Origin: Eledone cirrhosa
Lineage: Eukaryota
Assembly (NCBI GenBank): GCA_964016885.1
Contig: CAXHJY010001076.1
Span: 61,345 to 125,344 of the forward strand
DNA length: 64,000 nucleotides
Reading direction: 5' to 3'
Shown: in pieces, positions 36,760-64,000 of the stretch
Layout: each line of letters begins with the position of its first letter
How positions within the stretch are numbered: the first letter of the stretch is position 1
The notes under the pieces: model-generated
Told to the model about the DNA's origin: nothing
Databases searched by the model: none
What the model saw: only the letters and a program-made list of their open reading frames with translations
Position numbers and translations under genes: made by a program

Positions 36760-39700
36760 GGTGGTGGTGGTGTAGTGGTGGTGTAGTGGTGGTGTAGTGG
36801 TGGTCTGGTGGTGGTGGTAGTGGTGTTGTTGTTGTTGTTGTTGTTGTTGTTGGTGGTGGTGGTTTAGTGGTGGTGGTGGTGTAGTGATGGTGTAGTGGTG
36901 GTGTAGTGGTGGTGTAGTGGTTGTGTTGTTGTTGTTGGTGGGGTGGTGGTGGTGGTGTAGTGGTGGTGGTGGTGGTGGTGTAGTGGTTGTGTTGTTGTTG
37001 TTGGTGGTGGTGGGGTGGTGGTGGTGGTGTAGTGGTGGTGGTGGTGTAGTGGTGGTGGTGGTGGTGGTGTAGTGGTGGTGTAGTGGTGGTGGTGGTGGTG
37101 GTGGTGTAGTGGTTGTGTTGTTGTTGTTGTTGGTGGTGGTGTAGTGGTGGTGGTGGTGGTGTAGTGGTGGTGTAGTGGTGGTGGTGGTGGTGGTGGTGTA
37201 GTGGTTGTGTTGTTGTTGTTGTTGGTGGTGGTGTAGTGGTGGTGGTGGTGGTGTAGTGGTTGTGTTGTTGTTGTTGGTGGTGGTGGTGGTTTAGTGGTGT
37301 AGTGGTGGTGGTGGTGTAGTGGTGGTGTAGTGGTGGTGTAGTGGTGGTGGTGGTGTAGTGGTTGTGTAGTGGTGGTGGTGGTGGTGGTGGTGTAGTGGTT
37401 GTGTTGTTGTTGTTGGTGGTGGTGGTTTAGTGGTGGTGGTGGTGGTGTAGTGGTGGTGGTTGAGGTGTAGTGGTGGTGTAGTGGTTGTGTTGTTGTTGTT
37501 GGTGGGGTGGTGGTGGTGGTGTAGTGGTGGTGGTGGTGGTGGTGTAGTGGTTGTGTTGTTGTTGTTGGTGGTGGTGGGGTGGTGGTGGTGGTGTAGTGGT
37601 GGTGGTGGTGTAGTGGTTGTGTTGTTGTTGTTGTTGGTGGTGGTGGTGTAGTGGTGGTGGTGGTGGTGGTGTAGTGGTGGTGTAGTGGTGGTGGTGGTGG
37701 TGGTGGTGTAGTGGTTGTGTTGTTGTTGTTGTTGGTGGTGGTGTAGTGGTGGTGGTGGTGGTGTAGTGGTGGTGTAGTGGTGGTGGTGGTGGTGGTGGTG
37801 TAGTGGTTGTGTTGTTGTTGTTGTTGGTGGTGGTGTAGTGGTGGTGGTGGTGGTGTAGTGGTTGTGTTGTTGTTGTTGGTGGTGGTGGTTTAGTGGTGTA
37901 GTGGTGGTGGTGGTGTAGTGGTGGTGTAGTGGTGGTGTAGTGGTGGTGGTGGTGTAGTGGTTGTGTAGTGGTGGTGGTGGTGGTGGTGGTGTAGTGGTTG
38001 TGTTGTTGTTGTTGTGTGGTGGTGGTGTAGTGGTGGTGGTGGTGGTGTAGTGGTGGTGTAGTGGTGGTGGTGGTGGTGGTGGTGTAGTGGTTGTGTTGTT
38101 GTTGTTGTTGGTGGTGGTGTAGTGGTGGTGTAGTGGTGGTGGTGGTGTAGTGGTTGTGTTGTGTTGGTGGTGGTGGTGGTTTAGTGGTGTAGTGGTGGTG
38201 GTGGTGTAGTGGTGGTGTAGTGGTGGTGTAGTGGTGGTGGTGGTGTAGTGGTGGTGTAGTGGTGGTGGTGGTGGTGGTGGTGTAGTGGTTGTGTTGTGTT
38301 GTTGGTGGTGGTGGTTTAGTGGTGTAGTGGTGGTGGTGGTGTAGTGGTGGTGTAGTGGTGGTGTAGTGGTGGTGGTGGTGTAGTGGTGGTGTAGTGGTGG
38401 TGGTGGTGGTGGTGGTGTAGTGGTTGTGTTGTTGTTGTTGGTGGTGGTGGTTTAGTGGTGTTGTGGTGGTGGTGGTGTAGTGGTGGTGTGTGGTGGTGTA
38501 GTGGTGGTGGTGGTGTGTGGTGGTGTAGTGGTGGTGTGTGGTGGGGGTGGTGTAGTGGTTGTGTGTTGTGTTGGTGGTGGTGGTTTGTGGTGTAGTGGTG
38601 GTGGTGGGTGTGGTGGTGGTGTGTGGTGGTGTGTGGTGGTGGTGGGTGTGTGGTGGGGTGGTGGTGGTGGGTGGTGGTGGTGGTGTGTGGTGGTGTTGTG
38701 GTGTGGTGGTGGTGGTGGTTGTGGTGGTGGTGGGGGTGGTGTGGTGGGGGTGGGGTGGTGGTGGGTGGTGGTGTGTGGTGGTGGGGGTGTGGTGGGGGTG
38801 GGGGTGGTGTGTGGTGGTGGGGGGGTGTGGTGTGTTGTTGTTGTTGGTGGTGGTGGTTTAGTGGTGTAGTGGTGGTGGTGGTGTGTGGTGGTGTAGTGGT
38901 GGTGTGTGGTGGTGGTGGTGTAGTGGTGGTGTAGTGGTGGTGGTGGTGGTGGTGGTGTGTGGGTGTGTTGTTGTTGTGGTGGTGGTGGTGTAGTGGTGGT
39001 GGTGGTGGTGTAGTGGTGGTGTAGTGGTGGTGGTGGTGGTGGTGGTGTAGTGGTTGTGTTGTTGTTGTTGGTGGTGGTGTAGTGGTGGTGGTGGTGGTGT
39101 AGTGGTTGTGTTGTTGTTGTTGGTGGTGGTGGTTTAGTGGTGTAGTGGTGGTGGTGGTGTAGTGGTGGTGTAGTGGTGGTGTAGTGGTGGTGGTGGTGTA
39201 GTGGTTGTGTTGTTGTTGTTGGTGGTGGTGGTTTAGTGGTGTAGTGGTGGTGGTGGTGTAGTGGTGGTGTAGTGGTGGTGTAGTGGTGGTGGTGGTGTAG
39301 TGGTTGTGTTGTTGTTGTTGGTGGTGGTGGTTTAGTGTTGGTGGTAGTGTAGTGGTGGTGGTGGTGGTGGTGTAGTGGTGGTGGTGTAGTGGTGGTGTGG
39401 TGGTGGTGGTAGTGGTGTTGTTGTTGTTGTTGGTGGTGGTTTAGTGGTGGTGGTGTAGTGGTGTAGTGGTGGTGGTTGAGGTGTAGTGGTGGTGGTGGTG
39501 TAGTGGTGGTGGCAGTGGTGTTGTTGATTTTGGTGGTGGTGGTGTAGTGGTGGTGGTGGTGTAGTGGTGGTGGTGGTGTAGTTGTTGTTGGTGGTGGTGG
39601 TGGTGGCGGTGGTGGCGGTGTAGTGGTGGTGGCAGTGGTGTTTTTTTTGGTGGTGGTGGTGTAGTGGTGGTGGTGGTGTAGTGGTAGTGGTGTTGTTGTT

Positions 39701-39764
39701 GTTGGTGGTGGTGGTGGTGTAGTGGTGGTGTAGTGGCGGTGTAGTGGTGGTGTAGTGGTGGTGG

Positions 39765-39796
<32 letters not shown>

Positions 39797-39870
39797 TAGT
39801 GGTGGTGGTGTAGTGTTGGTGTAGTGGTGGTGGTTGAGGTGTAGTGGTGGTGTAGTGGTGGTGGTGGGGG
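36760..39870. repeat. (GGT/GTA/GTT)n G-rich trinucleotide-type satellite
   Basis: Direct reading, ~3.1 kb. Confidence 0.96.
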
Positions 39871-40075
39871 GGGGGTAGTTCCCTGTATGTTCATTCAATT
39901 GTTGATCTATGTAAGACATATTACAAAATATCATAGTAAGGAAAAGATACATCTTCACTACCCGCCGTCTTCAGAAATAATCGAAGATGCATGTATCTTT
40001 TTCTTACTATGATATTTTGTAATATGTTTTACATAGATCAACAATTGAATGAACATATAGGGAACTACCCCCCCC
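39869..40075. repeat. Inverted repeat (arms ~39869-39952 / 39991-40075)
   Basis: GGGGTAGTTCCCTGTATGTTCATTCAATTG... / ...CAATTGAATGAACATATAGGGAACTACCCC. Confidence 0.85.
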
Positions 40076-40196
40076 AGAAACGATCGTAAAATAATGTGTT
40101 TTTCTATGAATTAACAGTTTTGTGTTTAATTTCATTGTTTTAATATTTATATATATTGGATGTGCAGTGTAAATGTGCGTGAACGACCCAGCATAA

Positions 40197-41244
40197 ATGT
40201 GTTGTGAGAGAAACTGTGTCTGAGAGGGATAGAATGTAGTGTACGGGAGAGGAGACTGAGGTGGTATGGACATGTGATGTGTTGAGAGAGAAACTGTGTC
40301 TGAGAGGGATAGAATGTAGTGTACGGGAGAGGAGACTGGGGTGGTATGGACATGTGATGTGTTGAGAGAGAAACTGTGTCTGAGAGGGATAGAATGTAGT
40401 GTACGGGAGAGGAGACTGAGGTGGTATGGACATGTGATGTGTTGAGAGAGAAACTGTGTCTGAGAGGGATAGAATGTAGTGTACGGGAGAGGAGACTGAG
40501 GTGGTATGGACATGTGATATGTTGAGAGAGAAACTGTGTCTGAGAGGGATAGAATGTAGTGTACGGGAAAGGAGACTGAGGTGGTATGGACATGTGATGT
40601 GTTGAGAGAGAAACTGTGTCTGAGAGGGATAGAATGTAGTGTACGGGAGAGGAGACTGAGGTGGTATGGACATGTGATGTGTTGAGAGAGAAACTGTGTC
40701 TGAGAGGGATAGAATGTAGTGTACGGGAGAGGAGACTGAGGTGGTATGGACATGTGATGTGTTGAGAGAGAAACTGTGTCTGAGAGGGATAGAATGTAGT
40801 GTATGGGAGAGGAGACTGAGGTGGTATGGACATGTGATGTGTTGAGAGAGAAACTGTGTCTGAGAGGGATAGAATGTAGTGTACGGGAGAGGAGACTGAG
40901 GTGGTATGGACATGTGATGTGTTGAGAGAGAAACTGTGTCTGAGAGGGATAGAATGTAGGGTACGGGAGAGGAGACTGAGGAGGTATAGACATGTGATGC
41001 GCATGGAGGATGACCGATGCGTGAAGAAGTGCCAGGAAATGCCAGTTGAAGGAAGACGTGGTAGAGGTAGACCATGAAAAACATGGGCGGAGGTGGTGAG
41101 AACAGACCTCAGATCATTGAAGCTCACGGTGGAGATGACGAGGGACCGTGACGAGTGGAGAGATGCTGTGCTGAATAAGACCCGTCCCACCCTTGCAAGC
41201 AGGGAAAAGCGGACGTAAAATGATGATGATGATGATGATGATGA
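40197..41244 (+). mobile_element. RTE-type LINE 3' fragment with 80-bp tandem array (~10 copies) and (GAT)n tail
   Basis: Reads ERRLRWYGHV..VEGRRGRGRP..W; the unit recurs every 80 bp. Confidence 0.85.
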
Positions 41245-41312
41245 TATAGTGGTAGAACACTGGAAGGTAATATCCATAGTGGTAGAGCACTCAGTCCATG
41301 GGACGAGTTAGG

Positions 41313-41448
41313 TAGAAGTAGTAACACAACAGTTAGTTCACCATACCGAGAACAATTGTTTCACCTTAGCAGATCCTCAGCTTGTAATCCGCTAAGGTGA
41401 AACAATTGTTCTCGGTATGGTGAACTAACTGTTGTGTTACCACTTCTA
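41313..41448. repeat. Inverted repeat (arms 41313-41370 / 41391-41448) with hammerhead
   Basis: Reverse-complementary arms; the right arm holds only GAAACAATTGTT. Confidence 0.88.
41347..41384 (-). ncRNA. Hammerhead motif
   Basis: CAAG-CTGAGGA-TCT gcta AGG T-GAAA-CAATTG-TT|CTCG; palindromic stem III. Confidence 0.6.
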
Positions 41449-41752
41449 TATATATATATATATATAACGAAGGAAATGTGGTAAGGAACCAGATGGACCA
41501 TAACGCACCAAAGTACTCAATACTTAGGGTAGTAGAGTGGGTAATAGAGTAGTAGAGTGGTTGTAGAGTAGTAGAGTGGTAATAGGGTAGTAGAGTGGGT
41601 AATTCTGGACTAGGAGTCCAGAATTAGCCGTCGAAACGGCTTGAGCTCAGCCGTCGGGGTCTTACTTGTTCCTATATATATATATATATATATGTTGATT
41701 TAAAACTGCACTATTCACAAGTGTATTTTAACCTTCATATCACGTCCTCATA

Positions 41753-41819
41753 TTTTATCTGATGAAAACACAAATGTTATTGCATGATGATATTTGTTTT
41801 TGAAATGCGCATAATAAAA
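41753..41819 (+). ncRNA. Minimal type-I hammerhead ribozyme (first of tandem pair)
   Basis: TTTTAT-CTGATGA-AAAC ACAAATGTTA..TGATATTTGT TTTT-GAAA-TGCGCA-TA|ATAAAA. Confidence 0.85.
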
Positions 41820-41849
41820 TACATGGAACTCATTTAACCATCTTTTGTT

Positions 41850-41889
<40 letters not shown>

Positions 41890-41993
41890 GGAGGTGAGTT
41901 TTATTGTAGTACAATAAAGCAATGCAGATATCGGATAAGAAGCACTCTACAGTTTGTAGGACTGGAGTATACATAATATAAGATCAAAAGATG

Positions 41994-42060
41994 TTTTATC
42001 TGATGAAAACACAAATATTATTGCATGATGATATTCGTTTTTGAAATGCGCATAATAAAA
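41994..42060 (+). ncRNA. Minimal type-I hammerhead ribozyme (second of tandem pair)
   Basis: Copy of 41753-41819, 241 nt downstream, with two substitutions in stem II. Confidence 0.83.
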
Positions 42061-42382
42061 TACATGGAACTCATTTAACCATCTTTTGTTCTTATATATA
42101 TATATATATATATAACTAGCTTATCTTTATAATTTAAAATTGATATACACTACGATACTCTGTACATGTCAACGCTTCATTTTGCCTTATGACAGCTAGT
42201 TTTCACGCCATAACATTAGATACATTATATACCCCCCACCTAAGTAATGTCAGGGTCTCCTTAAATAATTTATTGATAGCATTGTGGTAATTGTTGTTAT
42301 TGTTCTAATTGAATGCCATTACTACTTAAGATAGTAGCCTGTATTTTCTTTTCTTGCCTGTGTATTTTCTTCATTCTCGCAT

Positions 42383-42488
42383 GCTCTGAAGATCTGACTG
42401 GTTATAATTCTGTATTGGCGATCGAGTAACGCAAAATTAAGCGGATAGCGATCTCTAGACATACCAGTTCAGTGAAACAAATGTAAGC
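42383..42488 (+). ncRNA. Hammerhead motif with very long stem-loop II
   Basis: GCT-CTGAAGA-T CTGA CTGGT ...~60 nt... ACCAG T TCAG T-GAAA-CAAATG-TA|AGC. Confidence 0.7.
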
Positions 42489-42542
42489 TATGTGATTAAA
42501 AACTTTTTTGTATAGCAAACCATGTAAACCTTCTTTCCTGAT

Positions 42543-42578
<36 letters not shown>

Positions 42579-42608
42579 CACAATTAATCTTTTTTCTCTC
42601 TGTTTCAG

Positions 42609-42696
42609 GTTCACAAAAAATCTCACTCAAACCAAATGACTCAGATTAATTCTCGTATTGAGACAAAGGTAGCCAAAACCATATTTTTTGTGACCT
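42609..42696 (+). CDS. Opsin penultimate exon (ICL3 to start of TM6)
   Basis: Polypyrimidine + TTTCAG acceptor, GTAAGT donor. 88 nt = VHKKSHSNQMTQINSRIETKVAKTIFFVT + 1 nt, which joins in phase with the next exon to give ...FFVT-L-AFLASWLPY. Missed by the ORF track. Confidence 0.88.
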
Positions 42697-42910
42697 GTAA
42701 GTATAAAGAAGATCTTTTGGTACTCTGAACACTAAACTTTTCAGTAACTCAAACCAACCCCTAATCAGAACCTTAATTTAATTCTTAATTTCCTTTAATG
42801 ATTTAACAAGAGGCCAGTACAAATCTCTTAAACAGATATCTTGGTACCAGACACTTTTGGGATTTCAGAATGGAAGATTTTTAGGGTAGATTTTAAAGTT
42901 TTTTTAGATA

Positions 42911-43022
42911 GAGGCGTATGGCTGAGTGGTTAGAGAACTGGGTTCGCAGTCGTCAGGTTGTCAATTTGTTTCCTGGACCGGGTGATGCGTTATGTCCTTG
43001 AGCAAGATATTTTATTTCACGT
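42911..43022 (+). mobile_element. Degenerate tRNA-derived SINE head
   Basis: TGGCTGAGTGGTTAGAG...CCTTGAGCAAGA. Confidence 0.65.
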
Positions 43023-43300
43023 GGCTCCTTCTACCTGAAGTTGCGACCGATAGATAGTACTAGCAACTGGAAAGACCAATGGAAACATTGTTTCCTCGGT
43101 CCGATTTGACGAAAGTTGATCGACAAATTTTTTTTTTTAAGGTTCTTTTGACTATGGCATGGTTGCGGTGGTGTCGTGGGGGGAAGAAAGCGGCGTTGGT
43201 GGTGACAATGATGATGACAGCTGTGGTGGGAGAGAGAGAGAGCAGTGGTCCATTACTAGCAGTTGATGTGGCAGAAGATGGTGACGGTGGTGATGGTGAT

Positions 43301-44053
43301 AATAATAATGAAATTATTGTGTACAGTGCTCAGGTGCACTACAACTCGTCAAAGGTGTATGTATAGTACATAGAATAATACACAAATGTCAGGGAAGTAC
43401 ATGTGTGTATGTGTTAGCTGTAGTGTTGGCGGATCTCGGGAAGCATGGAGGCCTTAAAGGATGCAGTGTCTTGACAGCTAACAACTGATGCAGGTAGTTT
43501 GTTCCATGGAGGCCTTAAAGGATGCAGTGTCTCGACAGCTAACAACTGATGCAGGTAGTTTGTTCCATGGAGGCCTTAAAGGATGCAGTGTCTCGACAGC
43601 TAACAACTGATGCAGGGAGTTTGTTCCATGGAGGTTTTAAAGGATGCAGTGTCTCGACAGCTAAAAACTGATGCAGGTAGTTTGTTCCATGCTTCAGCAA
43701 CTCTGAGCGTGAAAAAATGTTTCCGAAAGTCATGGGAGCTGTGCTGTTTTCTGACTTTGTGGGCATGTCCACGTGTGTTAGACACATGGAAATCAAAAAG
43801 GTTCTCAGGGTTGTTGTTGGCAACATGGTTAACAATTTTGTGGGTGTTTACCAAGTCAGTTGCCAGGCGTCGGAGCTTCAATGTATCCATGCCCAGGGAA
43901 GCAAGGCGCTCAGAGTATGGTAGATGCCTGATGGAGGGTATTCGCTTGGTTGCACATCTCTGAACAGTTTCCAGGCGGTCAATGTCCTGAGCAAGATAGG
44001 GGTTCCAGACTGGTGATGCAAATTCTAAGTGTGGTCGCACCATAGCTGTATAC
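43301..44053 (-). mobile_element. CR1-group LINE 3' fragment (intronic) with ~4 copies of the 61-bp unit
   Basis: ORF 43600..44103 RPHLEFASPVWNP; (ATT)n tail. Confidence 0.88.
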
Positions 44054-44350
44054 AACCTTTGGCGATAATGATGGCTGAGTGAGTGGCTGAGTGATGCTGT
44101 CACTCAGTAACTCAGCTATTATGCTTGAATTCAGTAGTCGTTGCTCCTGATTTTGATAAAATATTAGATAGAACAAGGTGGCTCCTTGATTAGAGTGTTC
44201 GGCTCGTGGCCACAGGGTCACGAGTTTGCAATAACCCTACTTTCTGTGTTGTTGGTAATGGCAGACTCTTTCTTTTCTGTTTCTCACAGTTAACCATACA
44301 GAAACAGGCCCCACAAAGTTCTAGAAGTTTTGGGCTACATATATATATAT

Positions 44351-44862
44351 GGAGGCACATGGCTTAGTGCTGGAGGCACATGGTTTAGTGGTTAGAGCAT
44401 TGGCCTTGCAATCGAAAGGTTGTGAGTTCAATTCTCAGACCGGGTGATGTGTTGTTTCCTTGAGCAAGACACTTTATTTCACATTGCTCCAGTTTACTCA
44501 ACTGTAGAAATGAGATGATAGGGACTGGGGTCCCTATCATTCCACTGCAAAGTGGCCGTGGAGGTGCCACGGCAAAAACGCCCCCAGCACTCACTGTAAA
44601 GTGGACGTGGAGGCGCCACGGCAAAAACGCCCCCAGCACTCACTGTAAAGTGGTCGTGGAGGTGCCACGGCAAAAAAGCACCCAGCCCACACTGTAAAGT
44701 GGACGTGTAGGTGCCACGGCAAAAAAGCACCCAGCCCACACTGTAAATGAGGTTGGTGTTAGGAAGGGCATCCAGCTGTAGAAATCAAGCCAGAATCAGT
44801 TCCCGTCCCACCCTTGCAAGCAGGGAAAAGCGGACGTAAAATTATGATGATGATGATGATGA
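44351..44862 (+). mobile_element. Full tRNA-derived SINE with RTE-type 3' tail (intronic)
   Basis: A box TGGCTTAGTG, B box GTTCAATTC, central domain, ~4 x 49-bp repeats, tail CCCACCCTTGCAAGCAGGGAAAAGCGGACGTAAAA(TGA)n. Confidence 0.88.
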
Positions 44863-44902
44863 TATAGAAACAGCCCCCACAAAGTTCAAGAAGATTTTGG
44901 AT

Positions 44903-44933
<31 letters not shown>

Positions 44934-45101
44934 GAAACAGACCCCATTTAATATTTAATATGATGTAGTCATAGTGTTGTTTTGTACTAAATGTTTATAG
45001 TATCTTTACTGGTGGACAGATTGTTGTGAATATTTACAGTATTACAGTAAAGACTTTAATATTTAATGTGACGTAGTCATAGTGTTGTTTTGTACTGAAT
45101 G

Positions 45102-45549
45102 TCTCTCTCTCATTCTCTCTCTCTCACACCACCCTCTCTCTCTCTAATCTCTTCTCTCTCTCTCATCACCTTCTCTCTCCTTCATCACGCTCTCTCTCTC
45201 TCTCTCTAATCTCTTTCTCTCATCACCCTCTCTCTCTTTCATCACACTCTCTCTCTCTCTCTCTCTCATCACCCTCTCTCTCTTTCATCACGTTCTCTCA
45301 CTCACTCACTAATCTCTCTCTCTCTCTCACTGCCTCACTAAACTCTCTCTCTCTAACTCCCTCTCTCTCACTCACTCACTCACTCATCGCTCTCTCTCTC
45401 TCTCACTGCCTCACTAAACTCTCTCTCTCTCTAATCGCTCTCTCTAACACACTCTCTCTCCCTCACCCTAACTCTCTCTCACCACTCTCTCTCACACCAC
45501 CACCCTCTCTAACCATCCTCTCTCTCTCTCTCTCTTTCTTTCTCTCTCT
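45102..45549 (+). repeat. (CT)n polypyrimidine tract directly upstream of splice acceptor
   Basis: Direct reading; ends in CTTCCAG at 45557. Confidence 0.9.
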
Positions 45550-45557
45550 ACTTCCAG

Positions 45558-48500
45558 TGGCATTCCTTGCGTCGTGGCTCCCCTACGCCATCGTGTCGCT
45601 GCTGTTCGTGCTCGGTTACCACAGCAACATAGTCACGCCCGCGGCCGAGATCTCGTGCGCCGTGCTGGCCAAGTGTTCGGTCATCTGGAACCCCCTCATC
45701 TACGTCATGACCAACAACCAGCTGAAGAAGAGCATGCTGGACACGCTCCGGTCGACGTGCGGCCATCTTGGAGGCGGCGGCGGGTGGTGGTGCGGCGGCT
45801 GGCTCGGCGGAGCGTCCGGCGGGCGCGACGGCGACAGCCGGGGCGAGTACGACTACGAGTGCGACGAGTGCGACGAAGATGGCGGCGGCGTCGGCGTCGA
45901 CGGCCGAGGAGGCGACGGCGAAGAGAACATGGAGATGGTTGGCGGAAGCCGGCAGAGACGCTCGGCGCAGCAGCAGCAGCAGCAGCAGAACGGCAGCAGG
46001 AGGAAGGGCGGCGGCGGCGGCGGCGGCAGGGGCTGGAGAAAGAAAAAGAAGCGGCGCGGAGGCGGCGGACGGGGAGGCGCGATCGGACGGCTCCGGCACG
46101 AGGAGCAGAGCTACAACACGGAGTTCTCCGTGGCTCGCAGCTCGAGGGTCGGCCATGCTGGAGGCATAGAGCAGCTGGAGTTGGAGGACATCGCCATGCT
46201 GGAGGAAGCCGTAGGTGCCACTTCTACAGCTGCTCGGAGTTCTTTGATGCCTGGACTCCAACAACAACAACAACAGCAGCAGCAAGGGAGTGGGGCCATG
46301 TTGGGGGAAAACTCACTTGATTTTTGTATGGCCAGGGACTCCGTAATGATGATCGACCTCCAACAACGGCAACACCAACAGCAGTCTGAGAGTGCGGCCA
46401 TGTTGGAGGAAAACCTCACAGATCGGACTTCATTGATTTCCAGCCTCCAGCAACAACAGCAACGGTGTGAGAGTGCGGCCATGCTGGAGGAAAACCTCAC
46501 AGATCGGACTTCATTGATTTCCAGCCTCCAGCAACAACAGCAACGGTGTGAGAGTGCGGCCATGCTGGAGGAAAACCTCACAGATCGAACTTCATTGATT
46601 TCCAGCCTCCAGCAACAACAGCAACGGTGTGAGAGTGCGGCCATGCTGGAGGAAAACCTCACAGATCGGACTTCATTGATTTCCAGCCTCCAACAGCAAC
46701 AGCAACGGTGTGAGAGTGCGGCCATGCTGGAGGAAAACCTCACAGATCGAACTTCATTGATTTCCAGCCTCCAGCAACAACAGCAACGGTGTGAGAGTGC
46801 GGCCATGCTGGAGGAAAACCTTACAGATCGAACTTCATTGATTTGCAGCCTCCAGCAACAACAGCAACAGTGTGAGAGTGCGGCCATGCTGGAGGAAAAC
46901 CTCACAGATCGGACTTCATTGATTTCCAGCCTCCAGCAACAACAGTCTGAGAGTGCGGCCATGTTGGAGGAAAACCTGACGGCCGCTCCTCTGGCTCGGA
47001 GTTCCTTGATGGTGAACTTGCGACAACGACAACAACAACAACAACAACAACAACTGCAGTTGGAGGAGAGAGTAGCCATGCTGGGGGAAAACATACACCT
47101 GTCTTCATCTGCTTCTACAGACCTCCAACAACAACAGCAACAGCAACAACAACAACAGCAACAACAACAGCAGCTAAAAGTGGTGCCAGAGTTGAATGTA
47201 ACGGCCATATTGGAGGATGATGTCGCAACGTCATCATCATCATCGGCGTCTGCTCCAATCGCCAGAGATTCATTAGCAACAGTGAACATCCAACAACAAC
47301 AACAGCAGCAGCAGCAGCAGCCGGTAGTGGTGGTGGAGGTGCGGGGCTCGGGGGTGGAGGTGGAAGCCATGTCGGAGGAAGACATTGCTGCATTCTCATC
47401 TGCATCTATGACCTCGTGGGCAATGCTGATGGGTGGAGGTGGTGGTGGTGGTGGTGGTGTTGGAGGTGGTGTTGGAGGTGGTCGCAGTAGTGGTGGTGGT
47501 GTTGGAGGTGGTGGAGGTGGTGTTGGAGGTGGTCGCAGTAGTGGAGGTGGTGTTGGAGGTGGTGGAGGTGGTGTTGGAGGTGGTCGCAGTAGTGGTGGTG
47601 GTGTTGGAGGTGGTGGAGGTGGTGTTGGAGGTGGTGGAGGTGGTGTTGGAGGTGGTCGCAGTAGTGGAGGTGGTGTTGGAGGTGGTGGAGATGGTGTTGG
47701 AGGTGGTGGAGGTGGTGTTGGAGGTGGTCGCAGTAGTGGTGGTGGTGTTGGAGGTGGTGGAGGTGGTGTTGGAGGTGGTCGCAGTAGTGGTGGTGGTGTT
47801 GGAGGTGGTGGAGGTGGTGTTGGAGGTGGTCGCAGTAGTGGTGGTGGTGTTGGAGGTGGTGGAGGTGGTGTTGGAGGTGGTCGCAGTAGTGGAGGTGGTG
47901 TTGGAGGTGGTGGAGATGGTGTTGGAGGTGGTGGAGGTGGTGTTGGAGGTGGTCGCAGTAGTGGAGGTGGTGTTGGAGGTTGTCGCAGTAGTGGAGGAGG
48001 TGGTGGTGGTGTTGGAGGTGGTCGCAGTAGTGGAGGTGGAGGAGGTGGTGTTGGAGGTGGTCGCAGTAGTGGAGGAGGTGGTGGTGGTATTGGAGGTGGT
48101 CGCAGTAGTGGAGGTGGTGTTGGAGGTGGTGGAGGTGGTGTTGGAGGTGGTCGCAGTAGTGGAGGTGGTGGTGGTGGTGTTGGAGGTTGTCGCAGTAGTG
48201 GAGGTGGTGTTGGAGGTGGTGGAAGTGGTGGAGAGATGGGTGGTAGAGGTGGTAGGTGTAGTAGCAGCAGTAGTAGTAGTAGTAGCTACAACCCTGCTTT
48301 CTCCATGCCGGGGGCTCCGAACACCGGCCTCTCCCGCCCACAGCAACACCCCCCGGGGCAATCCTTCCCTGCCGATCCTTCGGCAACAACACTGTCTACT
48401 CCGGTGATGGTCATGGCGGGAAGCAGTCTCGGCGGCGGCGGTAGAAGTGCCAGTGGTAACGGAGGGGCCCCGCACCGGCTGGTGAGCGGCAGTGGGGGAG

Positions 48501-48613
48501 GCCCGACGCTGGCGCCCTCCCAGCGTTTCACGCCAGCCCTTGGGCGAGGTGCGACGGAGAAGAGGGAAGAGGGGGAGACATTTGAGGCTGAAGGGGACAT
48601 CACTAGTGTGTAG
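45558..48613 (+). CDS. Opsin terminal exon (TM6-TM7-helix 8 plus ~950-aa low-complexity tail), xenopsin-like
   Basis: WLPYAIVSL (TM6); LAKCSVIWNPLIY with Lys six residues before the N of NPxxY, equivalent to rhodopsin K296 (codon 45671-45673); NNQL resembles the NxQ helix-8 motif of xenopsins/c-opsins. Frame open to TAG at 48613. Subfamily call is inference. Confidence 0.85.
46388..46980 (+). repeat. Coding 81-bp (27-aa) tandem repeat, 7 copies + partial
   Basis: ESAAMLEENLTDRTSLISSLQQQQQRC. Confidence 0.93.
47431..48250 (+). repeat. Coding Gly-rich repeat (GGGRSSGGGVGGGGGGV)n
   Basis: Direct reading; frame preserved. Confidence 0.9.
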
Positions 48614-51523
48614 ATAAAACCCTAGACTTAACCCTGTCCCAACCCCTTGGGCGAGGTGTGACGGAGAAGAGGGAAGAGGGGGAGACATTTGAAGCTGAAG
48701 GGGACATCACTAGTGTGTAGATAAAACCCTAGACTTAACCCTGCCCCAACCCCTTGGGTGAGGTGTGACGGAGAAGAGGGGGAGACATTTGAGGCTGAAG
48801 GGGACATCACTAGTGTGTAGGTAAAACCCTAGACTTAACCCTGCCCCAACCCCTTGGGTGAGGTGTGACGGAGAAGAGGGGGAGACATTTGAGGCTGAAG
48901 GGGACATCACTAGTGTGTAGGTAAAACCCTAGACTTAACCCTGCCCCAACCCCTTGGGCGAGGTGTGATGGAGAAGAGGGAAGAGGGGGAGACATTTGAA
49001 GCTGAAGGGGACATCACTAGTGTGTAGATAAAACCCTAGACTTAACCCTGTCCCAACCCCTTTGGCGAGGTGTGATGGAGAGAACCGGGAAGAGGGGGAG
49101 ACATTTGAGGCTGAAGAGGACATCACTAGTGTGTAGATAAAACCCTAGACTTAACCCTGCCCCAACCCCTTGGGTGAGGTGTGATGAAGAGGGGGAGACA
49201 TTTGAAGCTGAAGGGGACATCACTAGTGTGTAGATAAAACCCTAGACTTAACCCTGTCCCAACCCCTTGGGCGAGGTGTGACGGAGAAGAGGGAAGAGGG
49301 GGAGACATTTGAAGCTGAAGGGGACATCACTAGTGTGTAGATAAAACCCTAGACTTAACCCTGTCCCAACCCCTTGGGCGAGGTGTGATGGAGAGAACCG
49401 GGAAGAGGGGGGAGACATTTGAGGCTGAAGGGGACATCACTAGTGTGTAGATAAAACCCTAGACTTAACCCTGCCCCAACCCCTTGGGCGAGGTGTGACG
49501 GAGAAGAGGGAAGAGGGGGGAGACATTTGAGGCTGAAGGGGACATCACTAGTGTGTAGATAAAACCCTAGACTTAACCCTGTCCCAACCCCTTGGGCGAG
49601 GTGTGACGGAGAAGAGGGAAGAGGGGGAGACATTTGAAGCTGAAGGGGACATCACTAGTGTGTAGATAAAACCCTAGACTTAACCCTGCCCCAACCCCTT
49701 GGGCGAGGTGTGACGGAGAAGAGGGAAGAGGGGGAGACATTTGAAGCTGAAGGGGACATCACTAGTGTGTAGATAAAACCCTAGACTTAACCCTGTCCCA
49801 ACCCCTTGGGCGAGGTGTGACGGAGAAGAGGGAAGAGGGGGGAGACATTTGAAGCTGAAGGGGACATCACTAGTGTGTAGATAAAACCCTAGACTTAACC
49901 CTGTCCCAACCCCTTGGGCGAGGTGTGACGGAGAAGAGGGAAGAGGGGGGAGACATTTGAAGCTGAAGGGGACATCACTAGTGTGTAGATAAAACCCTAG
50001 ACTTAACCCTGTCCCAACCCCTTGGGCGAGGTGTGACGGAGAAGAGGGAAGAGGGGGGAGACATTTGAAGCTGAAGGGGACATCACTAGTGTGTAGATAA
50101 AACCCTAGACCTAACCCTGTCCCAACCCCTTGGGCGAGGTGTGACGGAGAAGAGGGAAGAGGGGGGAGACATTTGAAGCTGAAGGGGACATCACTAGTGT
50201 GTAGATAAAACCCTAGACTTAACCCTGTCTCAACCCCTTGGGCGAGGTGTGACGGAGAAGAGGGAAGAGGGGGAGACATTTGAAGCTGAAGGGGACATCA
50301 CTAGTGTGTAGATAAAACCCTAGACTTAACCCTGTCCCAACCCCTTGGGCGAGGTGTGACGGAGAAGAGGGAAGAGGGGGGAGACATTTGAGGCTGAAGG
50401 GGACATCACTAGTGTGTAGATAAAACCCTAGACTTAACCCTGTCCCAACCCCTTGGGCGAGGTGTGACGGAGAGAAGAGGGAAGAGGGGGGAGACATTTG
50501 AGGCTGAAGGGGACATCACTAGTGTGTAGATAAAACCCTAGACTTAACCCTGCCCCAACCCCTTGGGCGAGGTGTGATGGAGAAGAGGGAAGAGGGGGAG
50601 ACATTTGAAGCTGAAGGGGACATCACTAGTGTGTAGATAAAACCCTAGACTTAACCCTGCCCCAACCCCTTGGGCGAGGTGTGACGGAGAAGAGGGAAGA
50701 GGGGGAGACATTTGAGGCTGAAGGGGACATCACTAGTGTGTAGATAAAACCCTAGACTTAACCCTGCCCCAACCCCTTGGGCGAGGTGTGATGGAGAGAA
50801 CCGGGAAGAGGGGGGAGACATTTGAGGCTGAAGGGGACATCACTAGTGTGTAGATAAAACCCTAGACTTAACCCTGTCCCAACCCCTTGGGCGAGGTGTG
50901 ATGGAGAGAACCGGGAAGAGGGGGGAGACATTTGAGGCTGAAGGGGACATCACTAGTGTGTAGATAAAACCCTAGACTTAACCCTGCCCCAACCCCTTGG
51001 GCGAGGTGTGACGGCGAAGAGGGAAGAGGGGGGAGACATTTGAAGCTGAAGGGGACATCACTAGTGTGTAGATAAAACCCTAGACTTAACCCTGCCCCAA
51101 CCCCTTGGGTGTGGTGTGATGGAGAAGAGGGGGAGACATTTGAGGCTGAAGGGGACATCACTAGTGTGTAGATAAAACCCTAGACTTAACCCTGCCCCAA
51201 CCCCTTGGGCGAGGTGTGACGGAGAAGAGGGAAGAGGGGGGAGACATTTGAGGCTGAAGAGGATATCACTAGTGTGTAGATAAAACCCTAGACTTAACCC
51301 TGTCCCAACCCCTTGGGCGAGGTGTGATGGAGAGAACCGGGAAGAGGGGGGAGACATTTGAGGCTGAAGAGGATATCACTAGTGTGTAGATAAAACCCTA
51401 GACTTAACCCTGCCCCAACCCCTTGGGTGAGGTGTGATGGAGAAGAGGGGGAGACATTTGAGGCTGAAGGGGACATCACTAGTGTGTAGATAAAACCCTA
51501 GACTTAACCCTGTCCCAACCCCT
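48537..51523 (+). repeat. ~107-bp minisatellite (~28 copies) spanning the opsin stop codon
   Basis: Unit CCCTTGGGCGAGGTG..GAGACATTTGAGGCTGAAGGGGACATCACTAGTGTGTAGATAAAACCCTAGACTTAACCCTG. Confidence 0.95.
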
Positions 51524-52089
51524 GCTTTCCAAAGCCCCTTTTTCTCCCCATATATTATCGTCCACACAGCCTCAGTCTTAAGTCCAGTAGCTGATGTCGA
51601 CTTTAATTGTTTCGCTCTCTTCGAGTTACTTACACACATGTGCATCGAGTTTCCCCTCTTCTGTATGTTGTTTTTCGTTTTTTTTTTTTAGTTATTTTTT
51701 CCTTTTCTTCCCTTTTCTCTTCCTTCTGTTATATATTTCTCTCTCTCTCTCTCTCTTCCCCCCAATAACTTCCTTTAGTTATTGAAGCAGTGTGGTTAGA
51801 TATCTTATCTTTAATGCGTAGAAACATCCATTGATGTCCAGCAGACAACTGATGAAGGGAAATTAGCCCTTTTTCGTTTTTTTTTTTTAAAGTCTTTTTT
51901 TCCTTTTCTTCCCTTTTCTCTTCCTTCTGTTATATATTTCTCTCCCCCCCGCCCAATAACTTCCTTTAGTTATTGAAGCACTGATGTCCAGCAGACAACC
52001 GATGAAGGGAAATTAGCCCCTCGTTCGTGCTTTCCTCTTATTTATAAATACACCTTATCCAACAACTACACAACCCCCCTTTCTTCGAT

Positions 52090-52130
<41 letters not shown>

Positions 52131-52500
52131 AAAAACATGGGGAGAAGAATACTGCATGGTTGCACATGGAATACATATTATAAAATTAGTCCCTCATCAG
52201 TGATTTGCCAACGATCATTGGTATTTCATCGCATTAAAAATCATATACCTCAGGTTGGTGCAAGCAATAACTAAAATAAGCTATTGGGACAAGTGAAAAG
52301 CGTAAAGCGAGGGGGACAAGTATACAACATAGGAGCAAAAGCTAACCGAAGATATTTATATATATATATAAAACCAAAATTAAATTAAGGTTGTCATGTC
52401 TGAGAATATCGGAAATGTACGCCATACCCTCTGTAGAATAAGCTCAAAGATTATAAGGAATAAATCCGAGCATTTATTAGCATTCAATTAAAAATCGATT

Positions 52501-55985: not shown

Positions 55986-56016
<31 letters not shown>

Positions 56017-57029
56017 GTATATATATATGTGTATGTATGTATATATATATATATATATACACACACACATGTATACATATATATGTATGAATATACATAT
56101 ATATATATACATATATAAATATATATGTATATATATATATACATACGTACATATATATATATATATACGTATATATAAATATGTATATATATATACATAT
56201 ATATATATACATATATAAATATGTATATATATATACATATATATATACATATATAAATATGTATATATATACATATATATATATACATACGTACATATAT
56301 ATATATACATATATAAATATGTATATATATATACATATATATATATACATATATAAATATGTATATATATACATATATATATATACATATATAAATATGT
56401 ATATATATACATATATATATATATAAATATGTATATATATACATATATATATATATAAATATGTATATATATACACATATATATATATATACATATTTAT
56501 GTATATATGTATATATATACATATATATGTATATATATAAATATGTATATATATATGTATATATATATATATATATACATATATATATGTATATATATAC
56601 ATATATATATATATATATACATATAAATATGTATATATATACATATATATATATAAATATGTATATATATACATATATATATATAAATATGTATATATAT
56701 ACACATATATATATATATATACATATTTATCTATATATGTATATATATACATATTTATATATATATATATATATATACATACATATATATAAATATATAT
56801 ATATATATACATATATATATTAATAAGCAAGATGTATGGTAGGTCATATGTAAATCGCGATGACCACGTCTGACCTACCAAATATGTGATGGTAGCTAGT
56901 TAAGCTCTATGCGTATAAGCAGAGCAGAAATATTAATGAAAGAGAACAAAGGAACTATTATGACATTATAACAAGTTTATTGCCGACAGCCGAAATGGCT
57001 GTCGGCAATAAACTTGTTCTTTTTCACTA

Positions 57030-64000
<6,971 letters not shown>

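What the first reader, a model, noticed from the sequence alone, without database searches (positions are those of the whole stretch)
42609..48613. Opsin (xenopsin-like) with a ~950-aa repeat-built cytoplasmic tail
Seen: after helix 8 the frame stays open for ~2.85 kb through a basic patch (RKKKKRR), polyQ runs, a 27-aa repeat and ~270 aa of Gly/Ser repeats. All repeat units are multiples of 3, whereas most non-coding arrays in the window (49, 61, 80, 107, 112, 136 bp) are not, which hints at selection for frame. Known: opsin tails are normally tens of residues; cephalopod r-opsin has a Pro-rich repeat tail, but far shorter and unrelated. Inference: a giant disordered, Ser/Thr-rich tail could change arrestin/GRK regulation or receptor clustering.
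Basis: partly seen in the sequence, partly recalled or inferred. Interest (0 to 1): 0.75.

Follow-up and report, generated by a model that had tools for sequence, protein, structure and literature searches.

The report
Octopus xenopsin with giant repeat tail
This octopus gene for the light-sensing protein xenopsin has a last exon that reads on for about 950 residues of repeats yet ends in the same short tag as the roughly 110-residue tail of other octopuses, so it likely makes a giant-tailed opsin whose extra length is probably tolerated repeat growth rather than a new function.

Summary
Window 42609-42696 and 45558-48613 are the two shared 3' exons of an octopod xenopsin locus. Two alternative TM1-5 exons lie upstream on the contig, a layout already proposed for Sepia and Argonauta. 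The last exon is open for 969 residues after NPxxY; O. bimaculoides and O. vulgaris have 130, and the longest among 151 other opsins examined has 478. This is not lost-stop read-through. Pieces of the ancestral tail survive in order, and its end (FxPxLxR...D-x-T-x-V-stop) sits in frame at the very end. All 10 coding repeat spacings are multiples of 3, against 11 of 40 non-coding ones, and short-read DNA contigs agree where they cover. No RNA run was available. The tail is no richer in Ser/Thr by fraction than the orthologue's, and its 27-aa block is weakly predicted helical. Both N-termini, the 3' UTR and a muscarinic receptor loop in this genome are inflated too, so tolerated repeat growth is likelier than adaptation. 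New variant of a known kind; interest 0.42.

The parts
1..42608 (+). Distal part of the first intron. The two alternative TM1-TM5 exons lie upstream of the window on the same contig. G000:C1103:23079-24092 is xenopsin-2 type: ATG start, 338 codons, a 144-aa Gly/Ala/Ser/Thr N-terminus. G000:C1103:51346-52338 is xenopsin-1 type, with no in-frame ATG before TM1. Both end in a phase-0 GT donor.
42609..42696 (+). Shared exon: intracellular loop 3 and start of TM6 (29 codons + 1 nt)
   Evidence: 29/29 identical to O. bimaculoides XP_014774037.1; splice sites
42697..45557 (+). Phase-1 intron with dispersed repeats and a CT tract before the acceptor
45558..45757 (+). TM6-TM7-helix 8: retinal lysine (K296 equivalent) at 45671-45673, NPLIY 45689-45703, NxQ tripeptide (NNQ) 45713-45721
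   Evidence: (93% to P0001)
45758..46192 (+). Proximal tail: pieces of the ancestral tail (ENMEMV..SR.RR; SYNTEFSVA..SR..H; ED.AMLEEAV) pushed apart by Gly, acidic, polyQ and basic (RKKKKRR 46037-46057) insertions
   Evidence: alignment
46193..47419 (+). About 13 copies of a unit grown from the ancestral AMLEE segment plus polyQ; the core is the 81-bp/27-aa array 46369-46977; weakly predicted helical
   Evidence: found only at this locus in the genome search
47420..48286 (+). Gly/Ser/Arg block, 289 aa, units of 51, 72, 39 and 30 bp
   Evidence: essentially no usable short-read cover
48287..48613 (+). Unique distal tail ending in the orthologous C-terminus F-x-P-x-L-x-R ... D-I-T-S-V-stop (class I PDZ-type ending, named from recall); DITSV 48596-48610, TAG 48611-48613
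   Evidence: short-read contigs cover 48295-48582 without gaps
48537..51523 (+). About 28 tandem copies of the gene's own last ~25 codons, stop and ~30 nt of 3' UTR; unit lengths 97-110 bp, mostly not 3n; serves as an internal non-coding control
52233..52492 (+). First AATAAA/ATTAAA hexamers after the last acceptor (candidate polyadenylation region; none between 45558 and 52232)

Best explanation
This is the shared last exon of an octopus xenopsin locus, in which a roughly 110-residue ancestral tail has grown about nine-fold by in-frame repeat expansion while keeping its reading frame and its terminal D-x-T-x-V tag; it is likely translated whole, and the added sequence probably acts as a tolerated long spacer between the receptor and a predicted PDZ-type anchor rather than as a new signalling module. 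Shown: the orthology, the open frame, the ordered ancestral pieces, the in-frame orthologous end and the local origin of the repeats. Inferred: triplet slippage and unequal crossing-over in a GC-rich, repeat-prone compartment supplied the copies, and selection removed only those that broke the frame or lost the terminus. Also inferred: both isoforms (exon A or exon B plus the shared exons) would carry the tail, giving about 1,385 aa for the exon-A form. Taken from other xenopsins, not tested here: the core works as a blue-sensitive, bistable, Gi/o-coupled pigment.
For: The last 28 aa of the O. bimaculoides tail match best at the exact end of the 951-aa tail (score 23, next best 8, of 923 windows; 0 of 5000 shuffles). 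P0003 does the same (13 against 6; 3 of 5000), and MAFFT independently pins D-x-T-x-V there. 10/10 coding spacings are 3n against 11/40 non-coding, and the stop-containing array directly behind the stop drifts freely (97-110 bp). 5 of 7 distinct changes among the 81-bp copies are synonymous (expected 22-31%; p 0.007-0.03). There is no donor-like site of 6/9 or better in 45700-46464 and no polyA hexamer before 52233. Short-read contigs match 45556-45958, 46051-46520 and 48295-48582 without gaps. The repeat's depth ratio is about 5 against 4.2 in the assembly, and the one variant listed in the exon (46135) is synonymous. For tolerance rather than adaptation: the N-terminus of exon A grew from about 45 aa (O. 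sinensis, P0006) to 144 aa, exon B and the 3' UTR are inflated too, a muscarinic receptor in this genome has a loop of about 2,200 aa, and the Ser/Thr fraction is unchanged.
Against: No transcript or peptide evidence. 3n lengths inside GGT/CAR triplet arrays are partly expected from slippage alone, and the Gly/Ser block is also open in a second + frame, so that block says little by itself. An acceptor-like site at 48343 (phase 0) and weak phase-0 donors at 47012, 47198 and 47339 could skip the Gly/Ser block in frame. Plain local alignment of the orthologous end against the whole tail was not significant (191/2000 and 243/2000 shuffles); only the end-anchored test was. Giant frames are rare among this genome's receptors (2 of 149 7tm_1 hits have frames over 900 aa), and the link between GC3 and homopeptide runs is weak (rho 0.29, p 0.016, n 69; Fisher p 0.051). 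The synonymous bias among repeat copies could mean that the peptide itself is under selection. Exon B has no in-frame ATG.
Confidence: 0.6

Rival explanations
1. The tail is translated and adaptive: a helical rod of about 250 aa made of 27-aa units (acidic and Ser/Thr clusters, one Cys each) plus a Gly tether multiplies kinase/arrestin sites or sets receptor spacing and clustering through the terminal PDZ-type tag.
For: The unit grew from a segment (AMLEE) present in the Octopus tail. There is a synonymous bias among copies. Residues 266-511 are modelled helical (pLDDT about 45-65). Absolute Ser/Thr count is 149 against 16, and phospho-code-like patterns 9/7/13 against 1/2/0 (patterns recalled). 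Ser/Thr clusters in the melanopsin tail govern deactivation (PMC6396282, start of abstract in listing only).
Against: Ser/Thr fraction is not raised. The AMLEE segment is absent from P0002 and P0003. The same inflation hits extracellular N-termini and the 3' UTR, where this function cannot apply. Xenopsin expression is low in octopod retina and optic lobe (10.64898/2026.07.15.738692, passages). The model is single-sequence and low confidence (mean pLDDT 37.7).
Confidence: 0.2
2. Part of the repeat region, chiefly the Gly/Ser block, is removed as a cryptic intron, so the main protein has a shorter but still very long tail (at least about 500 aa).
For: Acceptor-like site at 48343, in phase with weak donors at 47012, 47198 and 47339; the Gly/Ser block has low GC3 (0.07) and almost no read cover.
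Against: The donors score only 6/9 (the true donor scores 7/9). All four spacing classes in the block are 3n and it has no stop in frame, whereas the intronic GGT array has 40-54 stops in every + frame.
Confidence: 0.12
3. The long frame is an assembly artefact or belongs to a decaying gene (lost stop, read-through into 3' UTR repeats).
For: Unplaced 125-kb contig full of satellites; 46889-47097 and 47307-47933 lack short-read cover; the runs may be the assembly's own sample; exon B lacks an ATG; P0002 shows that stop loss occurs in a relative (DDTGV followed by W).
Against: The orthologous stop is at the far end, in frame. Short-read contigs confirm both flanks and the multi-copy 81-bp unit. 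The core is 93-100% identical to Octopus orthologues, with K296, DRY, E181, NPxxY and NxQ intact.
Confidence: 0.06

Closest known systems
Coleoid xenopsins: Sepia officinalis Sof_xeno1/Sof_xeno2 (PMC7553075), Idiosepius xenopsin, Argonauta xenopsins (10.1101/2021.11.08.467834), O. bimaculoides XP_014774037.1 and O. vulgaris CAI9744030.1 (annotated 'melanopsin-A(-like)')
   Same: Two alternative TM1-5 exons on shared TM6-7 exons; the same junction peptides; K296, NPxxY, NxQ; ancestral tail motifs; terminal D-x-T-x-V in the Octopus proteins and P0003 (the Sepia tail end was not visible to me).
   Different: Tail 969 aa after NPxxY against 130 (Octopus) and about 113 after TM7 (Sepia; proteins of 430 and 432 aa by the supplement's TMHMM output). 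Exon A N-terminus 144 aa against about 45. Exon B has no in-frame ATG.
Long-tailed opsins generally (melanopsin / non-canonical r-opsins; the longest unnamed hits P0141, P0093, P0047)
   Same: A long, mostly low-complexity cytoplasmic tail with many Ser/Thr.
   Different: The longest among 151 examined is 478 aa, half of this one; no sequence relation; those tails do not carry a minisatellite grown from their own sequence on this scale.
Cephalopod r-opsin1 proline-rich tail (own genome: L002)
   Same: A repeat-built cytoplasmic tail on a cephalopod opsin.
   Different: About 100 aa, YPPQG pentapeptides, conserved across cephalopods (recalled); a different opsin class; unrelated sequence.
Class A GPCRs with giant intracellular loops (own genome: muscarinic receptor L012, 2,563-aa frame)
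   Same: A repeat-inflated intracellular region between intact transmembrane segments in the same genome.
   Different: Third loop rather than tail; different repeats; not an opsin.

Membership tests
Animal opsin | 7TM rhodopsin-family core | tested here: met
   PF00001 on exon A (8.8e-34), exon B (3.7e-34) and last exon (3.5e-4); best solved relatives are spider and squid rhodopsins
Animal opsin | Retinal-binding Lys296, NPxxY, D/ERY, ECL2 Glu181 | tested here: met
   AK at 45668-45673, NPLIY; DRY and ECL2 Glu in both first exons (bovine numbering from recall)
Xenopsin | Orthology / phylogenetic placement with xenopsins | tested here: met
   Near-identical to sequences placed in the xenopsin clade in PMC7553075 (passages and supplement compared by eye). 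Own tree: 100/100 clade with coleoid relatives, apart from r-opsin; that tree lacks labelled xenopsin references and its deep nodes are open.
Xenopsin | NxQ tripeptide at 310-312 (PMC6805122, PMC7529461 passages) | tested here: met
   NPLIY-VMT-NNQ
Xenopsin | [quoted passage not shown] | tested here: inconclusive
   Two coding introns (phase 0 after TM5, phase 1 in TM6), at the same boundaries as partial Octopus and Euprymna models; the paper's figure giving the positions could not be seen
Xenopsin clade A | C-terminal VxPx ciliary-targeting signature (PMC6805122) | tested here: not met
   The protein ends in ITSV; the Octopus orthologues also lack a terminal VxPx. Clade A/B assignment not made.
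Xenopsin | Forms a bistable photopigment coupling to Gi/o | not testable with these tools
   Shown for Maritigrella and Limax xenopsins (PMC6805122, PMC10729476 passages)
Coleoid two-isoform xenopsin locus | Two TM1-5 exons sharing the 3' exons | tested here: met
   Genomic layout and phases; no second TM6-7 copy found in the genome; transcripts not tested
Class I PDZ ligand | S/T-x-V/I/L at the free C-terminus | tested here: met
   T-S-V-stop; T-x-V also in P0001, P0003, P0004, P0005; such endings occur in 22 of 151 opsins examined, those four included. Motif definition from recall.
Class I PDZ ligand | Binds a PDZ domain | not tested
   No partner known
Melanopsin / r-opsin (database label) | HPK/HPR tripeptide and placement with r-opsins | tested here: not met
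   NNQ instead; separate from L002 in the tree

The most novel reading that the evidence does not exclude
The longest opsin found in these searches (about 1,385 aa) has turned its own tail into a new device: a 250-residue helical rod of 27-aa phosphorylatable units and a Gly tether hold a conserved PDZ-type anchor 950 residues from the receptor, so repeat number tunes shut-off or clustering of both xenopsin isoforms in the octopus brain.
Probability: 0.18. Interest if true: 0.72.

Novelty: new variant of a known kind. Interest (0 to 1): 0.42.

Why it matters
If translated, this opsin's tail is twice as long as any of 151 others examined, and it is a natural insertion experiment. About 840 residues were added, yet the frame and the last five residues were kept, which points to a conserved terminal D-x-T-x-V signal in coleoid xenopsins that I did not find described. 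That gives a direct handle on how this poorly understood brain opsin is anchored. The locus also shows the two-first-exon xenopsin layout clearly in an octopod genome, where database models are split and labelled melanopsin. It warns that octopod gene models and opsin surveys can miss repeat-inflated exons. If the extra length is merely tolerated, the lesson concerns octopod genome mutation more than photoreception.

Tried and rejected
RNA evidence: no RNA holder listed. The three runs laid cover intron and exon continuously, so they behave as DNA, probably from one sample that may be the assembly's own; stretches without cover prove nothing. A protein-atlas look-up gave no result.

Pfam on the tail gave only sub-cut-off hits (Rbsn, KELAA), rejected as polyQ/helix bias. 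Plain local alignment of the orthologous C-termini against the whole tail was not significant, because acidic and low-complexity stretches compete. A transposon origin of the 81-bp and 108-bp units was not supported: each search found only this locus (the tool warns this does not prove rarity), and unique parts have single-copy depth. Stop avoidance in the coding copy of the 108-bp array was rejected: its one private difference (48546 region) is Ala versus Val, not a stop. Distance to a chromosome end did not predict homopeptide content (rho -0.06).

The 60 control receptors were taken mostly from the top of the table, skipping rows with stops and most tandem paralogues, plus 8 chosen for long frames and rhodopsin. 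L017 was dropped because its long frame is an AT microsatellite. This is not a random sample.

No complex was predicted, as no PDZ partner is known. Literature searches that found no description of the tail; some searches returned unrelated papers. Supplements of the two bioRxiv preprints (octopod opsin transcripts; argonaut alignments) were not seen and may hold this tail.
Full report
Setting. The window is the last 64 kb of a 125,344-base unplaced contig, G000:C1103, of a 3.0-Gb genome. The genome is an octopod's: its rhodopsin (L002) is of the Octopus type. The opsin under study is 93% identical to O. bimaculoides XP_014774037.1 over TM6-helix 8, but its tail differs greatly from O. bimaculoides and O. 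vulgaris.

The observation. An 88-nt exon at 42609-42696 encodes VHKK...IFFVT, 29/29 identical to the Octopus orthologues, and joins in phase 1 to 45558. From 45560 the frame runs 1017 codons to TAG at 48611, with the retinal lysine at 45671, NPLIY, NNQ and helix 8, then 951 further residues. The basic patch, polyQ runs, 81-bp array and Gly/Ser block are as described. The other two frames of the tail have 27 and 39 stops, and 0 of 300 Markov simulations per order gave an open frame. Short-read contigs from three runs, probably one DNA sample, match 45556-45958, 46051-46520 and 48295-48582 without gaps. The 81-bp unit shows about five-fold depth against a mean 4.2-fold multiplicity in the assembly. 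46889-47097 and 47307-47933 have no cover. No RNA holder was listed.

The whole gene. A 7tm_1 search of the genome found two TM1-5 exons upstream on the same contig: 23079-24092 and 51346-52338. Both end in phase-0 GT donors that fit the exon at 42609, and both have DRY and the ECL2 glutamate. No second TM6-7 copy turned up; the other hits were rhodopsin and a peropsin-like exon (the latter label is my reading).

This layout is in print. [quoted passage not shown] The argonaut preprint proposes two variants sharing two exons (10.1101/2021.11.08.467834, passages). The Sepia supplement's alignment shows the same junction peptides in Sepia and Idiosepius, exon B resembling xeno1 and exon A the O. 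vulgaris sequence listed beside xeno2 (by eye). It gives Sepia lengths of 430 and 432 aa with about 113 residues after TM7. My tree puts both models in a 100/100 clade with coleoid relatives, apart from r-opsin; it has no labelled xenopsin references, and the shared exons pull the two models together. Membership of xenopsins is therefore well supported; the database label 'melanopsin' is not. Exon B has no in-frame ATG in at least 132 codons before TM1, which remains unexplained.

Is the tail coding? The decisive evidence comes from orthologues. The Octopus tail (130 aa after NPLIY) is not replaced but pulled apart. Its pieces ENxEMV..SR.RR, SYNTEFSVA and EDxAMLEEAV appear in order in the first 150 residues. 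The AMLEE segment is the seed of about 13 copies, including the 27-aa array. The orthologue's last 28 residues match best at the very end of the tail: global score 23, next best 8 of 923 windows, 0 of 5000 shuffles; for P0003, 13 against 6, 3 of 5000. A plain local alignment was not significant (191 and 243 of 2000). The shared ending is F-x-P-x-L-x-R ... D-[IMV]-T-x-V-stop with Octopus, and D-x-T-x-V with P0003. In P0002 the same motif is followed by W and 17 more residues. So the stop at 48611 is the ancestral stop and the expansion happened inside the coding exon.

Frame tests agree. All 10 spacing classes in the coding repeats are multiples of 3, against 11 of 40 in non-coding arrays (p=3e-5; classes not fully independent, and triplet slippage alone gives 3n inside GGT and CAR runs). 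The best internal control is the array at 48537-51523, made of the gene's own last codons, stop and a piece of UTR: once behind the stop its units drift between 97 and 110 bp. Among the six full 81-bp copies, 5 of 7 distinct changes are synonymous (expected 22-31%; p 0.007-0.03; without one of the two paired Gln swaps 4 of 6, p 0.02-0.08). No donor-like site of 6/9 or better lies in 45700-46464 and no polyA hexamer lies before 52233. However, weak phase-0 donors at 47012, 47198 and 47339 and an acceptor-like site at 48343 could drop the Gly/Ser block in frame.

How unusual? Of 169 stored proteins, 151 had the K-x5-NPxxY signature. Their tails have a median of 83 residues, 20 exceed 200 and the longest is 478 (the set includes fragments and one apparent tandem fusion). 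This one has 969. Searches for a description found none. Within the genome it is rare but not unique. 2 of 149 7tm_1 hits sit in frames over 900 aa, and one is a muscarinic receptor with about 2,200 residues of polyPro, polyGln/His and tandem repeats between TM5 and TM6. At the xenopsin locus the extracellular N-terminus of exon A has grown from about 45 to 144 residues, exon B's is similarly inflated, and so is the UTR.

GC3 of receptor cores falls with chromosome length (rho -0.62, n 67), and the xenopsin exons (0.61, 0.71, 0.92) look like small-chromosome genes. Homopeptide runs occur in 4 of 11 high-GC3 against 6 of 56 low-GC3 receptors (p 0.051), a weak trend in a non-random sample. Earlier scan notes report other giant repeat exons in this genome; I did not check them.

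Mechanism. The best reading (0.6) is that slippage and unequal crossing-over inflated the tail, selection kept only the frame and the terminus, and the product is a normal xenopsin core with a long spacer before a PDZ-type ending. The PDZ role is inferred from a recalled motif; such endings occur in 22 of 151 opsins examined. The core's photochemistry is borrowed from other xenopsins: Gi signalling in a flatworm (PMC6805122, passages), and a blue, bistable pigment tested for Gq and Go activation in Limax (PMC10729476, passages). Cephalopod xenopsins are weakly expressed: in sub-adult Sepia in optic lobes only among the tissues tested, low in octopod retina and optic lobe, undetected in bobtail squid retina (PMC12240821, passages). 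Low expression would make a costly tail cheap to tolerate (inference).

The adaptive rival (0.2) rests on the synonymous bias, a low-confidence helical model for residues 266-511 (single sequence, mean pLDDT 37.7) and the rise in absolute Ser/Thr number (149 against 16). The fraction, however, is unchanged (15.7% against 14.3%). Partial splicing (0.12) and artefact or decay (0.06) are the other rivals.

Verdict. This is a real and probably translated giant tail on an ordinary, known xenopsin locus: a new variant of a known kind. Its most useful yield is the conserved terminal motif that the expansion exposes. Interest 0.42. Other papers seen: PMC10733189 and PMC7529461 (passages); PMC6396282 (listing and start of abstract only).

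Noticed in passing
L012 = G000:C7:5974000-5983999, frame from locus 1998 (+): Muscarinic acetylcholine receptor with a 2,563-aa open frame, about 2,200 aa of polyGlu/Asp, polyPro, 14-aa and 5-aa tandem repeats and polyGln/His between TM5 and TM6; a more extreme inflation than the opsin's.
   Followed up: partly
G000:C1103:51346-52338 (L009:1346-2338): The xenopsin-1-type first exon has intact TM1-5 but no in-frame ATG for at least 132 codons upstream; it has a hydrophobic Val/Ala stretch and is preceded by tandem copies of a unit of about 180 bp. A hidden upstream exon, a non-AUG start, an assembly error or decay are all open.
   Followed up: partly
window 48537-51523: A minisatellite born from the gene's own stop-codon region (about 28 copies); the coding copy differs from the 26 other copies matched at one site. 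It implies a 3' UTR of at least 3.6 kb.
   Followed up: yes
P0002: A relative in which the terminal D-x-T-x-V is followed by Trp and 17 more residues, as if the stop were lost or misread.
   Followed up: no
L002-L080 (67 receptor loci on chromosome-scale contigs): GC3 of GPCR cores is strongly anticorrelated with chromosome length (rho -0.62): the small chromosomes form a GC-rich compartment.
   Followed up: partly
window 5134-7488 (-), 29828-31446 (+), 43600-44103 (-): Reverse-transcriptase-like frames of non-LTR retroelements (785 aa, Penelope-like; 165+376 aa, LINE-like; labels from recall). The 61-bp arrays at 13827, 31358 and 43444 look like tandem copies of the LINE-like element's 3' end.
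   Followed up: no
window about 4100 and 7691: A block repeated at 3,591-bp distance (identical microsatellite sets at 4698-4957 and 8289-8548).
   Followed up: no
window 55986-64000: An 8-kb (AT)n tract at which the contig ends.
   Followed up: no
L003 = G000:C13:34637247-34640417: Last exon of another opsin (peropsin-like, my reading) with a short tail; together with rhodopsin (L002) it shows that these two other opsins are not inflated.
   Followed up: partly
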